From: a virus
Lineage: Duplodnaviria > Caudoviricetes
Reading direction: 5' to 3' (one strand)
DNA: 64,000 nt
IMG/VR virus record: IMGVR_UViG_3300033075_001196
Coordinates: 32,001-96,000 of that record
Below are positions 2,461 through 23,203 of the stretch, piece after piece; the stretch's first letter is position 1, and each line of letters opens with the position of its first letter. The position numbers and the translations under genes were made by a program. Below the pieces are notes generated by a model. It saw nothing but the letters and a program-made list of their open reading frames with translations. It did no database searches and was not told where the DNA came from.

Positions 2461-4293
2461 TTACTTAAGTACGTTTGCTCTAACTAATTGATATCTATTA
2501 CTTCTATGCAATGATTCTAATGGAGTAAATACATCCATAATATCAATGTCTTTAAAGTTAGTTAAAAATTGCTCAATAGCAGCTGGATTTGGTGGTACCA
2601 TCATAAAATTCTCAATCCCACTAAATTGTTTAATATCTTGGGATGAATTATAAGCAACATCTATTGCTACAATAAATGGTTTAAATCCAAAATACTTTTG
2701 GCATCTTGCAAAGAAATCATTTAATGATGAACTAGCACTTCCCAAATTATTAAAATTTCCATCACTAATCAATGTCCATACTGGGAATTGTTGCAACATC
2801 TCTAACTTATTTGGATCACCACCAATCCATTGATTAATACTATCTGGAATAGAACTAACATTAGTACCATTTCCAGTCGAATGAGCATCCAAAAATGATT
2901 TAAACTCTTTAAGGTTATCCAAGAAATGTTTTTCTGGATTCATTAAAGGTTTTGCAACATCTTTGCTAGTAGCATTTATTATTGCATTTCTTGCATTAGA
3001 TTGTTTGGTAATTGAATTAAACATTCTACAAACATTACTAAATAAACCAACTATTGATCTACCAACATCATCTGGATTTTTCAATAAGCAAATTGAAGCA
3101 ATAAATGCTGCAAACTGTCTAGCACTGAATCCAAATCCACCATAACCAGAATTCATAGATCCTGAATCGTCAACAAATACTAATGTATTATATGGCAACT
3201 TTATTTTATCCAGGAATGGTTGTAATTTAACTTTATCTATAGTTCCATTAATTGTTTCTACAAACATATCTTTGAAATTAATGGCACCTGTAGTTACTTT
3301 AGCTTCCTTCTTAACTTTAACTAATGTCTCAACATCTGTTTCAGAAGCGGTTCCTTGTCTTACCTTTTCTTCTAGAACTCTTTGCTTAGATTGTGCTTCT
3401 ACTTTAGATGTTTCCCAAATTTGAAACCATTTTGCTAAATTAGTCCATTTCTCATTGATGTTTCCTTTGGCATCAAACAACCTTCTCTTAACTCGATATC
3501 TAGCTCCAGCTGGTAATTTATTCAGCCAATTGAGAAATTCTTGCTGATCAAATTCTTTAATTTTACCTGAAGAGAATAATACTGATTCAATATCACCAAT
3601 ATATTCTTTTCTCCAATTATAGTAATCAGTAAATATGGTGAATTTTTCTTTTTGATCATACTTCCAACCAATCTTGTCTGATAATGATTTAATCAATTCA
3701 GCCTTTAAATTGGCTTGAGTTTTGGTGACCGACAATAATTTTTTATGACCTGATCTCTTTGATGTTCTTGGGCGAGTTAGAAATTTAGCTAACAACATCT
3801 TATCAAATGGTGAATTGCCTTTAACAATTTTTGCTAAAAATCCAGAAATATCATCAATTTCAGATTGTTTATAAGCAACTATAGAACCTATTACCTTATC
3901 AGTTTTCCTTTGTGTTTGAACTCGATTTGCTAATAAAATATCAAATGAATTAAATTCATTGAATAATCTAGCATTCATGAATTTTACATACTGTTTGTAA
4001 TTGGTATTTTTAAGCCAATCTACAATTACTCTAAAGGCTGCTAAATTGCTTCCACCACCAGAATCAACTTTGTCTTTACCAAAAATGTTATGGGTTCTTC
4101 CTGTAATATCCCCGATAGAAAATAATAAAGAATAAAACATTTCCTTTTGTTCTAAAGTCTTGCATTCTTTAAGACATGAATCCAACACTCCTTTAGAAAC
4201 TACGCCTTTATTTCCTTCTTGAAACAACTTAAGGCAGTTAGCCATCCCATAAAATGGGTTACTATTTTTTTTATTTAATTCAATTTTCATCAT
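2461..4293 (-). CDS. TROVE/Ro60-like (DUF2828-type) helical protein with C-terminal vWA domain
   Basis: MIDAS VFVDDSGSM, G.GTN and LISDG.FN motifs; long helical N-terminal region; ATG at 4293 (MMKIELNKK) preferred over the upstream TTG at 4326. Confidence 0.75.
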   Translation of the reverse strand: MMKIELNKKNSNPFYGMANCLKLFQEGNKGVVSKGVLDSCLKECKTLEQKEMFYSLLFSIGDITGRTHNIFGKDKVDSGGGSNLAAFRVIVDWLKNTNYKQYVKFMNARLFNEFNSFDILLANRVQTQRKTDKVIGSIVAYKQSEIDDISGFLAKIVKGNSPFDKMLLAKFLTRPRTSKRSGHKKLLSVTKTQANLKAELIKSLSDKIGWKYDQKEKFTIFTDYYNWRKEYIGDIESVLFSSGKIKEFDQQEFLNWLNKLPAGARYRVKRRLFDAKGNINEKWTNLAKWFQIWETSKVEAQSKQRVLEEKVRQGTASETDVETLVKVKKEAKVTTGAINFKDMFVETINGTIDKVKLQPFLDKIKLPYNTLVFVDDSGSMNSGYGGFGFSARQFAAFIASICLLKNPDDVGRSIVGLFSNVCRMFNSITKQSNARNAIINATSKDVAKPLMNPEKHFLDNLKEFKSFLDAHSTGNGTNVSSIPDSINQWIGGDPNKLEMLQQFPVWTLISDGNFNNLGSASSSLNDFFARCQKYFGFKPFIVAIDVAYNSSQDIKQFSGIENFMMVPPNPAAIEQFLTNFKDIDIMDVFTPLESLHRSNRYQLVRANVLK

Positions 4294-4294
4294 A

Positions 4295-4350
4295 AAAATA
4301 CTTTTTTTAGTTGTTTGAAAAGACAATTTGTTTTAGTTTGTAAGTATCTT
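4295..4350 (-). promoter_or_regulatory. Leader copy of the array stem (AAGAUACUU/AAGUAUUUU, ACUUACAAA motif) abutting the vWA start codon
   Basis: Same motif as the array units but with no tRNA body; 3' arm ends 1 nt before the ATG at 4293. Confidence 0.6.
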
Positions 4351-4354
4351 AAAG

Positions 4355-4470
4355 TGCCGGAGAGGGGAATCGAACCACCTGTTACATAAATTCACATTTT
4401 ATTTGAAGTTTTATTTGTTTGTAACTATCTTTATGAGTAAGATAGTAAATACCAACATTTCAACTCCGGC
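4355..4470 (-). ncRNA. tRNA-like RNA (116 nt) with a ~45-nt insertion in the variable region
   Basis: Perfect acceptor GCCGGAG/CUCCGGC, T loop GUUCGAUUC, 7-bp anticodon-like stem CUAUCUU/AAGAUAG followed by UUACAAA; insertion closed by GUUACA/UGUAAC. Confidence 0.7.
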
Positions 4471-4484
4471 ATGTAATATAAAAT

Positions 4485-4598
4485 AAGTCACTTATTTTTT
4501 TGATCATTTATAAGATGATTGCCTAACCATTTGGCTAACTTCCTTTGTAGGAGGTATTGGATTCGAACCAATATTATTGTAGGTTTTGTAAGTGACTT
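4485..4598 (-). ncRNA. Y-RNA-like unit: terminal stem around a circularly permuted tRNA (anticodon UAU)
   Basis: AAGUCACUUA/UAAGUGACUU 10-bp stem; internal order is T arm, acceptor stem closed by an ACAA loop, D arm, anticodon arm AUCAU-CUUAUAA-AUGAU. Confidence 0.75.
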
Positions 4599-4615
4599 TT
4601 TGAGTCTTTAAAAAT

Positions 4616-4781
4616 GATCCGGGCAATTTTTTTCCAGAGCAGAATAAATAGAGCTATTGGTATTATCTCCTAATCCGTCATGTCAGTTGCGCTGACCGAG
4701 GTTCTGATGCACCAGGTTTCCCGTATTTTCATTTTATTTCGCAGAACTATCTGTTATCGGATACTGGTAGTGTTCCGGACT
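4616..4781 (-). ncRNA. Unidentified structured RNA (~165 nt) inside the array
   Basis: GC-rich relative to flanks; terminal UCCGG/CCGGA pairing, GUCAG-CGCAA-CUGAC hairpin, GUUCUG/CAGAAC helix; no ORF. Confidence 0.5.
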
Positions 4782-4854
4782 GCATACTTTAAAATTATTT
4801 TATTGATCATTTAATATCTTAGAATCTTTATTCAAAGATTGTGGTTTAAAAAAT

Positions 4855-4963
4855 GAGTTACTTGAGTTTTAAATTGCGGGAGTTGAACCCGCCTATCATT
4901 CTCCAAAAGTATGTGCCCCACCACGGGGCGAATTTTAACTGTTAGTTATTTTGTAAGTAACTC
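4855..4963 (-). ncRNA. Y-RNA-like unit: terminal stem around a tRNA-like body (anticodon UUG)
   Basis: GAGUUACUU/AAGUAACUC stem with ACUUACAAA motif; D arm GCCCC-GUGGU-GGGGC; T arm GCGGG-UUCAACU-CCCGC; no CCA. Confidence 0.72.
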
Positions 4964-4979
4964 TTTGAATTTTAAAATA

Positions 4980-5081
4980 AAGACACTTAGTTTCACAAGC
5001 TGGAATTGAACCAGCAACATTCTGCTTTGAAGGCGGACGATCTAACCAATTGATCTATTGTAATAATTTTGTAAGTGTCTT
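4980..5081 (-). ncRNA. Y-RNA-like unit: terminal stem around a tRNA-like body (anticodon UCA)
   Basis: AAGACACUUA/UAAGUGUCUU stem; D arm GAUC-AAUUGGUUA-GAUC; anticodon loop CUUCAAA; T arm GCUGG-UUCAAUU-CCAGC; no CCA. Confidence 0.75.
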
Positions 5082-5093
5082 ATATTATTTTAA

Positions 5094-5528
5094 CTATGCT
5101 TCCATAGTTGCAATTTCTGCTTCTAATTCTTTAATTTTCTCTTCAGGAGTTTTCTTTTCCTCCTTATATTGAGCTAAAATTAATTTTTTATCCTTTAAAA
5201 TTCTAGCATTTTCTTCCTTCACTTCTTTGAATTTTTTAAATCCAATTAGTAAATCCAATAGTTCAGCTTGATTTTTTAATCCAGCTAATTTGGATTGTTG
5301 ATACTCGGTCATTGACCATCTATCTAATTTAGATGTATTTTCAATTTCCTTTGAAGTAGAAATATACAATTTTTGTAAAGTATTTATTGAAGTTTCCTGC
5401 AACAACTGATGGGCATTTAATGTTGTTCCCATTGCTCCTGTTATAGTACCTCCTGAAAATAACATTGCAGTTAATAATGCATCTAATTGAGCTTTATGCT
5501 CTTTGGTAAAAGTAATTTGTTGTGCCAT
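5094..5528 (-). CDS. Hypothetical coiled-coil protein, first gene of the array transcript
   Basis: 144 aa, heptad-like C-terminus; sits between promoter 5550-5581 and the RNA array. Confidence 0.7.
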   Translation of the reverse strand: MAQQITFTKEHKAQLDALLTAMLFSGGTITGAMGTTLNAHQLLQETSINTLQKLYISTSKEIENTSKLDRWSMTEYQQSKLAGLKNQAELLDLLIGFKKFKEVKEENARILKDKKLILAQYKEEKKTPEEKIKELEAEIATMEA

Positions 5529-5549: not shown

Positions 5550-5581
5550 TAAAGGTAAAAAAAGATTTTCAATTAACCAAA
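5550..5581 (-). promoter_or_regulatory. Bacteroidota-type promoter (TTTG-N20-TACCTTTA)
   Basis: Repeated motif. Confidence 0.72.
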
Positions 5582-5847: not shown

Positions 5848-5939
5848 TGGTAGGGAGAAATGGATTCGAACCATTACAACAATCCGCCATCCTTGTCGAA
5901 GGGAACGCAGACCCGATATACCAATTCTCGTATCTCCCC
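5848..5939 (-). tRNA. Atypical tRNA-like gene with an elongated anticodon arm (possible Arg UCG)
   Basis: Acceptor GGGGAGA/UCUCCCU, encoded ACCA, T arm AAUGG-UUCGAAU-CCAUU; anticodon arm ~33 nt. Confidence 0.65.
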
Positions 5940-5944
5940 ATAAG

Positions 5945-5987
5945 TTTAAAAATGTGACCCGGAGTCAATATCCTTCGGCCGGGTCAC
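5945..5987 (-). terminator. Strong hairpin followed by a U-run; possible intrinsic terminator or processing site
   Basis: GTGACCCGG...CCGGGTCAC 9-bp inverted repeat followed by AUUUUU on the minus strand. Confidence 0.45.
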
Positions 5988-6005
5988 TTAATGTATTGTG
6001 TCTCT

Positions 6006-6170
6006 TTGAAAGGTTTAAGCTTATTATACAATTGATCAACCGATTAATCTTCCCCCCATTATGGTAAAATAATTTATGGATGGGGGGATGGGTTTCGAAC
6101 CCACTACTTATTGTTTTATTTGCCTTTCAATACACCGTGTACCAATAAAGATAAACCTAAAGCTCCTGAT
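6006..6170 (-). ncRNA. YrlA-like circularly permuted tRNA-mimic RNA
   Basis: Order is T arm (GUGGG-UUCGAAA-CCCAU), CCCCCCA-U-CCA, 18-nt linker, UGGGGGG, D arm (GAUU-AAUCGGUU-GAUC); flanks can pair (UUGAAAGG/CCUUUCAA); boundaries approximate. Confidence 0.68.
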
Positions 6171-6239
6171 CAACACTAACTTACGACAATTTGACTGTTA
6201 ATGTAAACATGATGCTAAGGCTATTATCAGTATCTTTTG

Positions 6240-7037
6240 TTACTTACCTTGATGTAAATAACTAAATATTTTTTCTGCTGTTAAAGTAGATTTAATTGAA
6301 TCCACTTCATTTGCAATCTTGAGAGCTTCAATAACTGCAGTCAACATTTTACTACGTCTGGCTAAAATATTCGCTCTTTCTAAGTGGGATGCTTCCCCTG
6401 AAAATCGTTGGAATGTATAATCTCCCAATTCAATTATAGTATCCTTTGTTGCCAATTGCGGTGTATACTTTGCAGCATCACCCAATTTACCAATGTTTGG
6501 ATCAGTAAGAATATATGATTCCTTTTGGGTCGATTTCTCAACACCAACTTGCATTGGAGATTCAAAAATATCTCTTGAAGCATACATGGCATTTGTAGTT
6601 TTATTCCATGTTTCTGAATCACTTCGTACTGGAATATTTTCATACATCTCCTTCAGTGATCCGTTTTCCAATAATCCCTTGAGGCGCAATAATTCCATTG
6701 AAGTTAATTCACCGAAATTAATACCATCAACAACCAATTTTGCCTTTGCAATACCAGATGAATTGGTTTTTTCTTGGGAGAATAGCGCGTCAATATATTC
6801 TGCAGCATTTTCGGCTAAATAATTGAGTTTTTCATTAACTGTGGTAACTACCAAAGTATTAGATCTCTTGCCAGGTACATCAATACTTCCAGGCTTTGGT
6901 TCATATGTGCGCTTTTCACCTTTGAAAGAGCCTTGCGCACCTTTAAAGAACTTGATATATTCTTCTAGACCTTTTTTAAATACTCCAGCCAAATGGTCAG
7001 TCTTGGCGAGCAATACATTTAATTTTAATCCCGACAT
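6240..7037 (-). CDS. Conserved-looking hypothetical protein upstream of the permuted RNA
   Basis: 265-aa ORF with helical termini. Confidence 0.75.
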   Translation of the reverse strand: MSGLKLNVLLAKTDHLAGVFKKGLEEYIKFFKGAQGSFKGEKRTYEPKPGSIDVPGKRSNTLVVTTVNEKLNYLAENAAEYIDALFSQEKTNSSGIAKAKLVVDGINFGELTSMELLRLKGLLENGSLKEMYENIPVRSDSETWNKTTNAMYASRDIFESPMQVGVEKSTQKESYILTDPNIGKLGDAAKYTPQLATKDTIIELGDYTFQRFSGEASHLERANILARRSKMLTAVIEALKIANEVDSIKSTLTAEKIFSYLHQGK

Positions 7038-12021: not shown

Positions 12022-12822
12022 TTAACCTCTTGGTGAATGATTTCTATATAATAATTCTGCTTTATCTGATTGTATAAGTTCTCCAGTTTCTAATATGTAT
12101 CCAGTTAATTTTCCTTTCCATCCAGCTCCTGTATCTACATTAACTATATTACATACTTGCAAATTTGGAAACATTTTAATGTAATCTTTTTGCGTTGCTG
12201 TATGGCCAATGAATACTTTATCAAATCCTCCAAATTTCATCTTTTCATCAATTACATTATATCCCTTATTCAACAAATATTGTAAATGAGTTGCTCTTTC
12301 AAACAACCTTCTATCCCAAATTAAACTTTCTGGATCCAATAAATGGGCAGTTTGTAGTTCTGGATACAGAGCAACATCCCAACCTCCATGAACAAATGCA
12401 ATATTATTTTCAATATAATACCACTTCAAACTATTGAAAAACTCTATATGAGCTTCATAATCTGGTTTTGGATCTATAGTAGAAACATATGATTTAAATG
12501 TATTTGCTCCACCTTGATCCCACATATGATCATATCTTCTACGAATGTATGATATGTCACCTTCCACGATTTCTTTAAGATGTGAATTTAATGCGGATCG
12601 TATCCATTGATCATGATTTCCAAATATATAAATGTTTTTTCCACCGCTTAACTTTTGATATTCTATTAAATCATTAATGACCTTTACAGAATCAGGATAT
12701 CCATCTACATAATCACCCATACAAATTAAACGATCATTTTTTGGATCATAATTAGATCTAGCTACTACTTGTTGTAATGCTTTGTGATTACCATGAATAT
12801 CCCCAATTACTATAGTTCTCAT
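12022..12822 (-). CDS. Metallophosphoesterase (Ser/Thr phosphatase-like)
   Basis: GDIHG, GDYVD, GNHD, FVHGG, GHT, DTG motifs. Confidence 0.9.
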   Translation of the reverse strand: MRTIVIGDIHGNHKALQQVVARSNYDPKNDRLICMGDYVDGYPDSVKVINDLIEYQKLSGGKNIYIFGNHDQWIRSALNSHLKEIVEGDISYIRRRYDHMWDQGGANTFKSYVSTIDPKPDYEAHIEFFNSLKWYYIENNIAFVHGGWDVALYPELQTAHLLDPESLIWDRRLFERATHLQYLLNKGYNVIDEKMKFGGFDKVFIGHTATQKDYIKMFPNLQVCNIVNVDTGAGWKGKLTGYILETGELIQSDKAELLYRNHSPRG

Positions 12823-22594: not shown

Positions 22595-23203
22595 TTAATT
22601 AATCAATGATTTTGGTATTTCATCTTTTAAAATAGTTTTCTTGAATACTAAATTACCAGCAACATGAAATATTACAATTCCTTCTGGTTTCATAAATCCT
22701 GGAGATGCATAACTTCCATGAAGTTCTAATTGTTTCAAGACTTCATCAATTTTAACAGTATCAAACATTCCCCTATATATTTCTGGCACTACATGGCAAC
22801 AGGATGGCCTGGTATCGGTTCCAGAATCTCCCCATCTAGAAACATTAAATAAACTAAATCTCTTTTCTCCTTTTGGCAAATCATAACCACATTGAATTCC
22901 AGATCCCCACCATTCACCAAAATGGTGACCTTCACCTAAATTAAATAAATCATCTGAATGCGCTGCACACCAAGTGGCAAATCCATGATTATCATCTTTT
23001 GGAGTTATCCATTTAGTTCTGCTTCCTATTCTCATAGTATACCCATCCTTTCTCGCGATTATTTCAGGGGAATCAGCAACAGCCACTTCCTCTAAATCTA
23101 TATGCTGAATGAAGATAGATGCATTTGTACCATCTATTTTTTCAGTAATAATCATTTCCCTAGTTAATCTAGGCATCTTTGGAAATTCTCTAAATTTTAT
23201 CAT
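22595..23203 (-). CDS. RNA ligase (Rnl2-like nucleotidyltransferase)
   Basis: TEKIDGTN motif I, GSR, FGEW.G, F.LF, EGIVI, K.T motifs. Confidence 0.85.
   Translation of the reverse strand: MIKFREFPKMPRLTREMIITEKIDGTNASIFIQHIDLEEVAVADSPEIIARKDGYTMRIGSRTKWITPKDDNHGFATWCAAHSDDLFNLGEGHHFGEWWGSGIQCGYDLPKGEKRFSLFNVSRWGDSGTDTRPSCCHVVPEIYRGMFDTVKIDEVLKQLELHGSYASPGFMKPEGIVIFHVAGNLVFKKTILKDEIPKSLIN

What the first reader, a model, noticed from the sequence alone, without database searches (positions are those of the whole stretch)
2461..5528. TROVE/Ro60-like vWA gene transcribed behind an array of motif-capped tRNA-mimic RNAs: candidate new RNP system
Seen: the 800-nt ORF-free gap (4294-5093) holds five copies of a motif reading RAGNNA(C/G)UUACAAA on the minus strand (4337-4350, 4418-4431, 4585-4598, 4950-4963, 5068-5081). 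In four copies the 5' part pairs with a distal 3' arm whose sequence changes in compensation (GAUAC, GUCAC, GUUAC, GACAC), while UUACAAA stays invariant. In the fifth copy it forms the 3' strand of an anticodon-like stem. Units enclose different tRNA-derived bodies without a free CCA. Known: bacterial Ro60/TROVE-vWA proteins bind Y RNAs, which have a terminal stem plus a tRNA-like domain (YrlA). Inference: the DUF2828-type protein binds the stem/UUACAAA handle and displays interchangeable tRNA mimics. These could be decoys or sensors for host anticodon nucleases, or RNA-repair adaptors (an RNA ligase lies at 22595). One promoter (5550-5581) could drive the 144-aa gene, the array and the vWA gene.
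Basis: partly seen in the sequence, partly recalled or inferred. Interest (0 to 1): 0.92.

Follow-up and report, generated by a model that had tools for sequence, protein, structure and literature searches.

The report
Phage Ro60-like protein with tRNA-mimic RNAs
An uncultured wastewater phage encodes a very distant relative of the ring-shaped RNA-binding protein Ro60 beside a row of small RNAs that all carry one short conserved "handle" attached to tRNA look-alikes; this looks like an undescribed branch of the known Ro60/Y-RNA particles, whose job in bacteria and phages is still unknown.

Summary
The motif RAGNNASTTACAAA occurs five times on the minus strand at 4337-5081 and nowhere else in the window. 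Three copies pair perfectly (9-10 bp) with unit-specific distal arms. The bodies are tRNA-like: two in normal order, one circularly permuted, one with the handle as an internal hairpin.

The 610-aa protein matches neither the Pfam TROVE nor the DUF2828 model. Profile-profile comparison nevertheless joins it over its full length (99.9%, E 1.5e-31) to the DUF2828/DUF7788 family of Felix O1 ORF86. PHROGs groups that family with true phage Ro60 proteins. The whole-chain model ranks Ro60 structures first, but the N-terminal domain alone is only a generic helical repeat.

In 48 related phage loci the handle is at least 12-fold enriched and clusters beside the gene. It precedes the gene's start codon in 41 of 47 loci and appears in three circular permutations of one design, which argues against a promoter or terminator. 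Felix O1 has the same layout with a UACAGCAA handle.

Binding and function are untested. My verdict is a new variant of the Ro60/Y-RNA kind. This scan has already noted the Felix O1-type version on other DNA.

The parts
2461..4293 (-). Gene for a 610-aa Ro60-like protein (helical-repeat N domain of about 365 aa plus a C-terminal vWA domain with MIDAS motif DDSGSM). It is a divergent, enlarged member of the DUF2828/DUF7788 (phrog_850) superfamily.
   Evidence: Translation. phrog_850 E 2.1e-5. AF2 model pLDDT 88, pTM 0.84. The 12 best Foldseek hits are all Ro60. hhalign against the Felix O1 ORF86 family: 99.87%, E 1.5e-31, full length. More than 1150 homologues in metagenomes.
4295..4350 (-). 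Leader unit: handle copy AAGATACTTACAAA (4337-4350) with a weak 3' arm that ends 1 nt before the ATG at 4293. Candidate autoregulatory site.
   Evidence: weak fold. ACTTACAA lies within 130 nt upstream of the gene in 41 of 47 related loci, mostly 24-37 nt before the start. In one subgroup the 3' arm lies in codons 9-11.
4356..4470 (-). tRNA-like RNA with a perfect GC-rich 7-bp acceptor stem (GCCGGAG/CTCCGGC) and a T arm. The handle is an internal 8-bp hairpin (copy 4418-4431) followed by a 43-nt insert.
   Evidence: Rfam tRNA-Sec 29 bits, below GA 47; fold. It is one of 45 non-redundant RNAs of this design in related phages.
4485..4598 (-). Circularly permuted tRNA-like unit (order: T arm, 3' acceptor strand, ACAA loop, 5' acceptor strand, D arm, anticodon arm UAU). 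It is closed by the 10-bp handle stem (handle 4585-4598), which sits at the variable-arm position.
   Evidence: MFE -25.2, z -3.9. It is one of 26 permuted units found in related loci. The order of modules is that of YrlA (PMC4201824).
4600..4815 (-). GC-richer structured stretch inside the array, nature unknown. Whether it belongs to the system is uncertain.
   Evidence: No Rfam match at E<=10 apart from noise, and no homologue in 48 loci by nhmmer/blastn. RNA-library contigs from two sludge studies cover only 4555-4755 and 4555-4815.
4855..4963 (-). Handle unit with a 9-bp leader-trailer stem around a tRNA-Gln(UUG)-like body (4868-4938) whose acceptor stem is made only of A-U pairs. A T-rich tail follows.
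   Evidence: 39.9 bits; z -4.1.
4980..5081 (-). Handle unit with a 10-bp leader-trailer stem around a tRNA(UCA)-like body (4990-5064). A T-rich tail follows.
   Evidence: (56 bits).
5094..5528 (-). Gene for a 144-aa protein of unknown function with a C-terminal coiled-coil-like part. It is the conserved upstream partner of the Ro60-like gene.
   Evidence: A homologue lies on the same strand in 43 of 48 loci, just upstream of the Ro60-like gene in all but one. No Pfam, PHROG, PDB or Atlas assignment.
5550..5581 (-). It was not verified here.
   Evidence: No sigma-70-type site is called here. A Bacteroidetes-type TTTG, 20 nt, TACCTTTA is visible in the sequence; this is inference only.

Best explanation
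The 610-aa protein is a highly diverged Ro60-type RNA-binding protein of the DUF2828/DUF7788 branch, and the RNAs of the array are its Y-RNA-like partners.

Each RNA contains one helix whose conserved strand ends in ACUUA and runs on into single-stranded CAA(A/U). Helix plus overhang form the 'handle', and I infer that the protein docks on it, as Ro60 docks on the conserved stem of Y RNAs. The rest of each RNA is a tRNA-like module, attached to the handle in one of three circular permutations:
- termini in the handle and the tRNA in normal order;
- termini in the handle and the tRNA back to front, as in YrlA;
- termini at a normal acceptor stem and the handle closed by a loop.

A handle on the protein's own mRNA leader probably lets surplus protein repress its own translation.

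Most likely use (about 1 in 3): the particle presents tRNA look-alikes with many different anticodon loops during infection. These would act as decoys or as a repair/quality-control scaffold against tRNA-cleaving host defences, possibly together with the phage RNA ligase.

Shown here: the homology of the protein, the structure and covariation of the handle, the three topologies, and the co-occurrence with the gene. Inferred: binding, autoregulation and biological role.
For: Protein:
- phrog_850 E 2.1e-5. phrog_850 holds both the TROVE Ro-like protein of mycobacteriophage Bxz1 (E 2.8e-140) and Felix O1 ORF86 (E 1.5e-183).
- hhalign against the ORF86 family: 99.87%, 437 columns, full length.
- The vWA domain aligns to that of true Ro60 (86.6%, E 4.5e-6).
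- Ro60 entries fill Foldseek ranks 1-12. VIA gives Z up to 13.5 across both domains.

RNA:
- ACTTACAA occurs 238 times on the gene strand of the non-redundant loci, against 10-19 for decoy 8-mers of the same composition. Of these copies, 55% have a distal arm of 8 bp or more and 21% sit in a local hairpin, against 12% and 1% for the decoys.
- A unit's own arm fits in 40% of copies, against 4.7% when arms are swapped between units.
- The three topologies are documented.
- Handle-bearing normal-order tRNAs have poor acceptor stems (1.1 G-C pairs, 33% fully paired) compared with 3.4 and 84% in 143 handle-less tRNAs of the same phages.
- One unit matches the Rfam YrlA model end to end at E 6.7e-7.

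Association:
- The motif clusters beside the gene in 5 of 5 complete relatives.
- Of 16 IMG/VR contigs with real units, 14 encode the protein and the other 2 are fragments.
- Twelve DNA-polymerase relatives without the gene have the motif at background level.
- The leader carries the motif in 41 of 47 loci.

Independent parallel: Felix O1 ORF86 is followed by four stem+UACAGCAA RNAs, one with a permuted tRNA-like body.

Precedent: Rsr-YrlA and phage Ro60-Yrl particles (PMC4201824, PMC12135203).
Against: - No binding, RNA-end or expression data exist for the handle units. The RNA-library contigs cover only neighbouring elements.
- The N-terminal domain alone gives only generic helical-repeat matches (Foldseek E>0.1; VIA Z<=6.2) and shows no profile similarity to the TROVE N region (0.2%). 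A closed Ro-type ring is therefore not shown.
- The handle differs from the GNCGAAN0-1G / CGAA motif of known bacterial Y RNAs.
- A natural variant (G007) has lost the gene but keeps at least one unit.
- Units 1 and 2 pass the tRNA gathering score and could simply be tRNA genes.
- About 23% of motif copies show neither an arm nor a hairpin.
Confidence: 0.58

Rival explanations
1. The handle is a cis-acting maturation or stability module. A leader-trailer (or internal) helix with a conserved junction would be recognised by a host or phage ribonuclease, or would simply protect RNA ends. It would be used for a special set of phage tRNAs and for the mRNA. The neighbouring Ro60-like protein would have another task, such as general RNA quality control, and would not read the motif.
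For: - Units are packed 10-25 nt apart, and their 3' arms are followed by T-rich tails, as expected for punctuation of a polycistronic precursor.
- An RNA-library contig runs across the motif at 4585-4598 from upstream sequence.
- Variant G007 keeps a unit without the gene.
- The motif also precedes an mRNA.
Against: - The module keeps its sequence in three different topologies, including an internal hairpin in RNAs with their own perfect acceptor ends. There it marks no transcript end.
- It is confined to the neighbourhood of this one gene and is absent from the other tRNA blocks of the same phages.
- Felix O1 shows the same protein-RNA neighbourhood with a different handle sequence. That fits co-evolution with the protein better than dependence on a shared host RNase.
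Confidence: 0.2
2. The handle helix is a splice-like signal, analogous to the archaeal/eukaryal bulge-helix-bulge motif. An endonuclease would cut at the helix junction and the phage RNA ligase would rejoin the ends. This would remove internal handle hairpins and circularise permuted precursors, and RNase P and a 3' nuclease would then open them into ordinary tRNAs. On this reading the array consists of interrupted and permuted but functional tRNA genes.
For: - One helix motif occurs as an insertion, as a leader-trailer stem of permuted genes and around normal genes. This is the pattern known for BHB motifs in archaea and in the permuted tRNA genes of Cyanidioschyzon (my own knowledge; reviewed in PMC3400036).
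- Many permuted units in relatives encode a full 7-bp acceptor stem plus NCCA followed by a short spacer.
- Some internal-handle RNAs are complete tRNAs with the insert in the D loop, for example L015 8363-8485.
- An RNA ligase gene lies at 22595-23203 (PF09414, E 2.3e-11).
Against: - No endonuclease candidate was found.
- No joined forms appear in the contigs laid (table 5), although the units themselves were not covered.
- Several permuted units have no anticodon arm at all (for example L043 8337 and 8593).
- Normal-order units have acceptor stems too poor for a working tRNA.
- The helix has no two-bulge geometry.
Confidence: 0.1
3. The motif is a DNA signal, a phage-specific promoter paired with terminators. 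The apparent stems would then be incidental.
For: The motif lies upstream of most units and about 30 nt upstream of the gene. T-rich tracts follow the 3' arms.
Against: - The variable bases next to the motif covary with a partner 50-120 nt away (40% against 4.7% for swapped arms), so the conserved strand must be transcribed.
- In 51 copies the motif lies inside a tRNA-like RNA as the 3' strand of a hairpin.
- There is no room for a promoter between units.
- The motif is not used elsewhere in the genomes.
Confidence: 0.03

Closest known systems
Bacterial and phage Ro60 (Rsr) with YrlA/YrlB Y RNAs (Chen et al. 2014, PMC4201824); Thermus phage phiLo Ro60 with Yrl1/Yrl2 (PMC12135203; PDB 9KOP, 9L5Y)
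   Same: - A helical-repeat plus vWA/MIDAS protein is encoded next to small RNAs whose 5' and 3' ends form a stem with a conserved element on the 5' strand.
- At least one RNA has a back-to-front tRNA-like domain (T arm, acceptor-like stem, D arm).
- More than one partner RNA occurs per locus.
- An RNA ligase is encoded in the same genome.
   Different: - The protein is not detected by the TROVE model, and its N domain is not demonstrably a TROVE ring.
- The handle is ACUUA-CAA(A/U), not GNCGAAN0-1G/CGAA.
- Arrays hold up to about 10-15 handle copies per phage.
- The bodies include whole tRNA-like molecules with intact anticodon loops, in three circular permutations.
- The handle also sits on the protein's own mRNA leader.
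- A conserved 144-aa partner gene is present.
Felix O1 ORF86-type proteins (Pfam DUF2828 + DUF7788; phrog_850, annotated 'RNA-binding protein'), uncharacterised in the papers I could search
   Same: - Full-length homology (hhalign 99.87%).
- The gene sits at the edge of the tRNA cluster.
- It is followed by four RNAs with a stem plus conserved UACAGCAA, one of them with a permuted tRNA-like body.
   Different: - The window protein is 140 aa longer and is not recognised by either Pfam model.
- The handle reads (C)UUACAA(A/U) with different stem bases.
- There are many more RNA units, in more varied topologies.
- The host type is different (Bacteroidota-like, no Shine-Dalgarno).
Circularly permuted and intron-interrupted tRNA genes processed at bulge-helix-bulge motifs (Cyanidioschyzon merolae, archaea)
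   Same: The 3' half of a tRNA is encoded ahead of the 5' half, with complementary leader and trailer. One helix motif recurs at insertions and at leader-trailer junctions.
   Different: No BHB geometry, no splicing endonuclease and no evidence of circular intermediates. Several units lack an anticodon arm, so they cannot mature into tRNAs.

Membership tests
Ro60 / TROVE (Pfam PF05731) | Match to the TROVE profile | tested here: not met
   No hit for the protein at E<=10, for any of 53 family members at E<=0.01, or in the six-frame genome search at E<=10, where the controls D. radiodurans and B. thetaiotaomicron both rang.
Ro60 / TROVE (Pfam PF05731) | C-terminal vWA domain with MIDAS motif, homologous to the Ro60 vWA domain | tested here: met
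   DDSGSM is present, and D375, S377, S379, T477 and D511 are invariant. hhalign against the true TROVE alignment gives 86.6%, E 4.5e-6 over 179 columns. Weak PDB profile hits include 9L5Y, 9KOP, 1YVP and 2NVO.
Ro60 / TROVE (Pfam PF05731) | N-terminal HEAT-repeat ring (TROVE fold) | tested here: inconclusive
   For the whole chain, Ro60 fills Foldseek ranks 1-12 (E 8e-7 to 4e-4; TM 0.27-0.48), and VIA gives Z 11.2-13.5 with 277-409 residues aligned. The N domain alone gives only generic solenoids, with Z<=6.2 and Foldseek E>0.1. hhalign of the N regions gives 0.2%. Ring closure could not be inspected.
Ro60 / TROVE (Pfam PF05731) | Binds Y RNA through a conserved terminal stem | not testable with these tools
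   Only genomic association and structure logic are available.
DUF2828 + DUF7788 family (Felix O1 ORF86; phrog_850) | Match to the Pfam DUF2828 / DUF7788 profiles | tested here: not met
   No DUF2828 hit at E<=10, and none in 53 family members. Felix O1 ORF86 itself scores 1e-28 and 3e-43.
DUF2828 + DUF7788 family (Felix O1 ORF86; phrog_850) | Full-length homology by profile-profile comparison and by the PHROG model | tested here: met
   hhalign A1 against A6: 99.87%, E 1.5e-31, query 19-619 against template 30-475. phrog_850 E 2.1e-5. The A1 profile finds ORF86 in Felix O1 at E 7.6e-7.
YrlA (Rfam RF02553) | Score at or above the gathering cut-off (69 bits) | tested here: not met
   The best unit, L043 8607-8718, scores 45.3 bits (E 6.7e-7). 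No window unit is reported, and window 6002-6131, which carries no handle, scores 25.1 bits.
YrlA (Rfam RF02553) | Architecture: terminal stem, then T arm, acceptor-like stem-loop, D arm | tested here: met
   Seen in the window unit 4485-4598 and in 26 permuted units of relatives.
YrlA (Rfam RF02553) | 5' GNCGAAN0-1G motif (putative Ro60 site; PMC4201824) | tested here: not met
   The conserved 5' element is NNACUUA-CAA(A/U).
tRNA (Rfam RF00005) | Gathering score and a sound 7-bp acceptor stem | tested here: inconclusive
   Units 1 and 2 score 56 and 39.9 bits (GA 29). As a class, however, handle-bearing tRNAs have 1.1 G-C pairs and only 33% have fully paired acceptor stems, against 3.4 and 84% in handle-less tRNAs.
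Permuted tRNA genes processed through a circular intermediate | 3' half upstream of 5' half with complementary termini | tested here: met
   Relatives often encode NCCA plus a spacer between the halves.
Permuted tRNA genes processed through a circular intermediate | BHB motif, splicing endonuclease, circular RNA | not tested
   No joints appear in the contigs laid, but the units were not covered. No endonuclease was searched for systematically.

The most novel reading that the evidence does not exclude
The handle defines a modular RNA family in which one protein-docking helix is grafted onto tRNA bodies in three circular permutations. The phage would use the resulting Ro60-like particles as a programmable panel of tRNA mimics: decoys, sensors or repair templates for anticodon-loop-targeting host defences. 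Alternatively, the handle is a bacterial-virus counterpart of the archaeal BHB signal, turning permuted and interrupted genes into working tRNAs. Either reading would give the long-enigmatic bacterial and phage Ro60/Y-RNA systems a concrete, testable role.
Probability: 0.15. Interest if true: 0.85.

Novelty: new variant of a known kind. Interest (0 to 1): 0.62.

Why it matters
Ro60 and its Y RNAs are conserved from bacteria to humans, and Ro60 is a major autoantigen, yet what the tRNA-like part of bacterial Y RNAs is for remains unknown. This phage clade offers an unusually explicit version of the system:
- a protein too diverged for the current family models;
- a short, sharply defined handle;
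- up to a dozen partner RNAs per genome, whose cargo ranges from whole tRNA look-alikes with many anticodons to empty hairpins;
- a copy of the handle on the protein's own mRNA.

That gives direct handles for experiments: binding, autoregulation, and challenge with tRNA-cleaving defences. It also extends the Ro60-like/DUF2828 world to abundant phages of Bacteroidota-type hosts from wastewater and other environmental metagenomes. In addition, tRNA annotation in such phages overcalls tRNA genes, because a third of those near this gene have handles and defective acceptor stems.

Tried and rejected
- A literature search for the motif string gave only chance primer matches. Searches for permuted tRNA in phages and for YrlA with anticodon nucleases found no description of this array.
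- tblastn of the protein against 50,697 GenBank phage records gave no match at 1e-5.
The closer relatives (73% identity) and the most distant family members could therefore not be examined in context.
- A first alignment (A1) was too diverse for the search for related loci.
- The IMG/VR pattern scan returned 26 stretches. Seven contigs (L053, L058, L059, L061, L064, L066, L067) were chance matches inside coding-like sequence. The three complete genomes among them that lack the gene are therefore not counter-examples.
- N-domain-only fold searches did not retrieve Ro60.
- The unknown 4600-4815 element has no Rfam family and no homologue in 48 loci. I considered a mini RNase P RNA because of AGUCCGG...CCCGGAU, but nothing supports it.
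- The 144-aa partner has no family, structure or Atlas assignment.
- The sigma-70 scan finds fewer promoter-like sites than shuffles and none at 5550-5581.
- The RNA-library contigs do not cover the handle units themselves, so they say nothing about discrete unit RNAs.

Full report
**1. What is in the sequence**

All genes in this part of the window are read on the minus strand. Between the stop of a 144-aa ORF (5094) and the ATG of a 610-aa ORF (4293) no ORF of 50 aa or more lies on that strand. The motif RAGNNASTTACAAA occurs exactly five times there (4337, 4418, 4585, 4950, 5068) and nowhere else in the 64 kb. With one mismatch allowed there are 11 matches against 1.6 expected.

Three copies are the 5' strands of perfect 9-10 bp stems. 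Their partners lie 87-100 nt downstream and differ from unit to unit (GACAC/GUGUC, GUUAC/GUAAC, GUCAC/GUGAC). These stems appear in the minimum-free-energy folds, and T-rich tails follow them.

- Unit 4980-5081 encloses a tRNA-like body with anticodon UCA (Rfam tRNA, 56 bits).
- Unit 4855-4963 encloses a tRNA-Gln(UUG)-like body (39.9 bits) whose acceptor stem is made only of A-U pairs.
- Unit 4485-4598 encloses a back-to-front tRNA: T arm, 3' acceptor strand, a 4-nt loop, 5' acceptor strand, D arm and an intact anticodon arm (UAU). The handle stem therefore takes the place of a variable arm.
- In the RNA at 4356-4470 the motif is the 3' strand of an internal 8-bp hairpin. That RNA has its own perfect GC-rich acceptor stem and a T arm.
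- The last copy (4337-4350) heads a weak stem that ends one base before the ATG.

**2. The protein**

Pfam finds nothing. The only library hit is phrog_850, 'RNA-binding protein', at E 2.1e-5. The family is large: more than 1150 sequences at 90% clustering and 154 representatives at 50%. Its contigs are 95-185 kb long.

An AlphaFold model built on 53 homologues is confident (pLDDT 88, pTM 0.84). It shows a helical N-terminal domain of about 365 residues and a C-terminal vWA domain with an invariant MIDAS motif.

- Foldseek against the PDB puts twelve Ro60/Rsr/TROVE entries in ranks 1-12, including the Thermus phage phiLo protein. Their E-values run from 8e-7 to 4e-4 over about 600 alignment columns, ahead of generic vWA domains.
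- VIA-align gives Z 11.2-13.5 with up to 409 residues aligned across both domains. vWA-only hits reach Z<=11.5 with 160-190 residues.
- The N domain modelled alone (pLDDT 79) retrieves only generic HEAT/ARM/MIF4G solenoids: Foldseek E>0.1 and VIA Z<=6.2.
- hhalign against an alignment of true TROVE proteins aligns only the vWA domain (86.6%, E 4.5e-6). The N regions score 0.2%.
- The TROVE and DUF2828 Pfam models find nothing in the whole phage genome.

The link to known proteins came through phrog_850. It contains both the TROVE-domain 'Ro-like RNA binding protein' of mycobacteriophage Bxz1 (E 2.8e-140) and ORF86 of Salmonella phage Felix O1 (E 1.5e-183). ORF86 is Pfam DUF2828 + DUF7788. A profile-profile comparison of the window family with 21 ORF86-type proteins gives 99.87% probability, E 1.5e-31, over 437 columns from end to end.

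The protein is thus a diverged, enlarged member of the DUF2828/DUF7788 superfamily, which shares the Ro60 build. Whether its N domain forms a closed Ro-type ring remains open.

**3. The handle in relatives**

I fetched 48 loci from IMG/VR that encode a homologue at 39-56% identity.

- On the gene strand of the non-redundant loci, ACTTACAA occurs 238 times, against 10-19 for five decoy 8-mers of the same composition.
- In five complete genomes the copies cluster within a few kb of the gene. In G001, for example, 13 of the 15 copies on the gene's strand lie within 7 kb.
- 55% of copies have a complementary arm of 8 bp or more 20-300 nt downstream, and 21% sit in a local hairpin. For the decoys the figures are 12% and 1%.
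- The five variable bases next to ACUUA find their complement after a downstream AAGU in 40% of copies. When arms are swapped between units the figure is 4.7%. This is real, unit-specific pairing, so the conserved strand is transcribed.

The units fall into classes:
- (i) 37 units with a tRNA in normal order inside the leader-trailer stem.
- (ii) 26 units with a permuted tRNA-like body. Many have a full 7-bp acceptor stem and an encoded NCCA followed by a short spacer. Some have an anticodon arm and some do not.
- (iii) 45 RNAs of 100-136 nt with perfect GC-rich acceptor stems (mostly 5-6 G-C pairs). Their handle is an internal hairpin with a 3-5-nt loop at the anticodon-arm or D-loop position.
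- (iv) About 50 short hairpins without a tRNA part.

Classes i-iii are circular permutations of one object, a tRNA-like body plus the handle helix.

Normal-order tRNAs with a handle (n=51) have on average 1.1 G-C pairs in the acceptor stem, and only 33% are fully paired. The 143 handle-less tRNAs of the same loci have 3.4 G-C pairs and 84% are fully paired. Some handle-bearing ones also have 8-nt anticodon loops. They look like mimics rather than working tRNAs.

One permuted unit matches the Rfam YrlA model from end to end at E 6.7e-7 but below the gathering score. The others are not detected.

**4. Link between handle and protein**

- ACTTACAA lies within 130 nt upstream of the gene in 41 of 47 loci, with a one-base variant in 3 more. 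It is usually 24-37 nt before the start.
- In one subgroup the matching 3' arm lies in codons 9-11, so the stem encloses the start codon. This is the usual design of an RNA-binding protein that represses its own mRNA (inference).
- A scan of IMG/VR for a complete AGATAC-type unit gave 23 contigs, of which 16 carry real tRNA-like units. Fourteen of those 16 encode the protein, and the other two are fragments.
- One of the two fragments, G007, is about 92-99% identical to a gene-bearing phage but has a 3-kb deletion that removes the gene. The gene is therefore dispensable, and a unit can outlive it for a time.
- Twelve phages related through their DNA polymerase lack the gene. They have the motif at background frequency and no dense cluster.
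- In the window's own genome, four of the eight minus-strand copies lie in the array. The tRNAs at 11.0-11.6 kb carry no handle.

**5. An independent parallel**

Directly after ORF86, among the tRNA genes, Felix O1 has four copies of CAGAAGACC-NNN-TACAGCAA. One is followed by a T arm, a closed acceptor stem, a D arm and the complementary 3' arm.

Two distant branches of one protein superfamily therefore each sit beside RNAs of the same architecture. Their handles are related but distinct: UACAGCAA against UUACAA(A/U). That pattern is expected if the protein reads the handle. It is not expected for a host-specific nuclease or promoter signal.

**6. Other parts of the locus**

- The 144-aa gene is the conserved upstream partner in 43 of 48 loci, but it has no recognisable family.
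- Upstream of it lies a second module: a DUF7873 gene (6240-7037; E 4e-36) next to a YrlA-like RNA (6002-6131; 25 bits, E 0.019) and a tRNA-like RNA with a 27-nt insert (5851-5939).
- The phage comes from wastewater, sludge and freshwater samples. Contigs from sludge and wastewater metatranscriptome libraries cover the GC-richer element at 4600-4815 (runs from two studies) and the YrlA-like element at about 5900-6200 (two runs), but not the handle units themselves. This is weak evidence that non-coding RNAs of the region are abundant.

**7. Interpretation**

The best-supported reading (about 0.58) is a Ro60-type ribonucleoprotein. The handle is the docking site, the tRNA-like bodies are exchangeable cargo, and the leader copy provides feedback.

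What the particle does is inference. Three features point to it. The units carry many different, mostly intact anticodon loops. Their acceptor stems are poor in class i and perfect in class iii. An RNA ligase is encoded in the genome. I therefore favour a role in coping with tRNA-directed host defences, as a decoy or a repair/quality-control scaffold (about 1 in 3). Recruitment of host exoribonucleases, as in Rsr-Y RNA-PNPase, is the main alternative use.

The rivals are a pure processing/stability module (0.2), a splice-like signal that matures permuted and interrupted tRNA genes (0.1) and a DNA promoter/terminator signal (0.03). The last is nearly excluded by the covariation and by the internal-hairpin class.

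**8. Novelty**

Phage Ro60 with Y-RNA-like partners is published (PMC4201824, PMC12135203, PMC7824862). This scan has also noted the Felix O1-type version before, on other DNA.

New here, as far as I could search:
- the very diverged protein clade, invisible to Pfam;
- its own handle sequence;
- the large arrays;
- the three permutations of tRNA-plus-handle;
- the handle on the mRNA leader;
- the conserved 144-aa partner.

I class it as a new variant of a known kind.

Noticed in passing
window 4600-4815 (-): A GC-richer stretch of about 200 nt lies between units 2 and 3. It has a possible long-range closing stem (UUUAAAGUAUGCAGUCCGG / CCCGGAUCAUUUUUAAAG). It has no Rfam family and no homologue in 48 related loci, yet it is the only part of 4250-5500 covered by contigs of two sludge metatranscriptome studies.
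   Followed up: partly
window 5851-6131 (-) and 6240-7037 (-): A second protein-RNA module lies next door. A DUF7873 gene is followed by a YrlA-like RNA (6002-6131; T arm, 7-bp closed acceptor stem, D arm, terminal stem; no ACUUA handle), a GC hairpin (5950-5990) and a tRNA-like RNA with a 27-nt insert (5851-5939). RNA-library contigs cover 5899-6200.
   Followed up: partly
L054 (G007) compared with L010: A phage 92-99% identical to a gene-bearing relative has a deletion of about 3 kb. It removes the Ro60-like gene and several units but keeps at least one handle unit. This is a natural knock-out variant.
   Followed up: partly
L007 7208, L012 5733, L025 6988 and 7784, L039 7302: Several handle-bearing tRNA-like genes have 8-nt anticodon loops; ARAGORN calls four-base anticodons uuug, uucu and uugg.
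   Followed up: no
window 4990-5064 (-); L003 1749-1821; L029 4401-4475: Handle units with anticodon UCA (able to read the UGA stop codon) recur in distant relatives, although the genes in the window are open under the standard code.
   Followed up: no
units in L003, L023, L028, L037, L048: The single-stranded UUACAA of the handle is exactly complementary to the anticodon loop CUUGUAA (anticodon UGU) carried by several permuted units. tRNA-Thr(UGU) genes also often sit just after the gene. This may be chance, or a loop-handle contact.
   Followed up: no
L005 5001-6869; L041 and L044: The Ro60-like gene of L005 has an in-frame TAA at codon 115 of the match. In L041 and L044 the match ends near residue 510. 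These may be decaying copies or recoded genes.
   Followed up: no
L005 3752-4150, L025 3292-3679, L038 3689-4199: ARAGORN calls tmRNA genes just upstream of the Ro60-like gene in three relatives. Rfam gives weak tmRNA hits on permuted units in L010. These are probably artefacts of permuted tRNA-like modules, but this was not checked.
   Followed up: no
window 12022-12822 (-), 22595-23203 (-): A calcineurin-like phosphoesterase and an Rnl2-type RNA ligase are encoded in the same window. Together they could form an RNA end-healing and end-sealing pair.
   Followed up: partly
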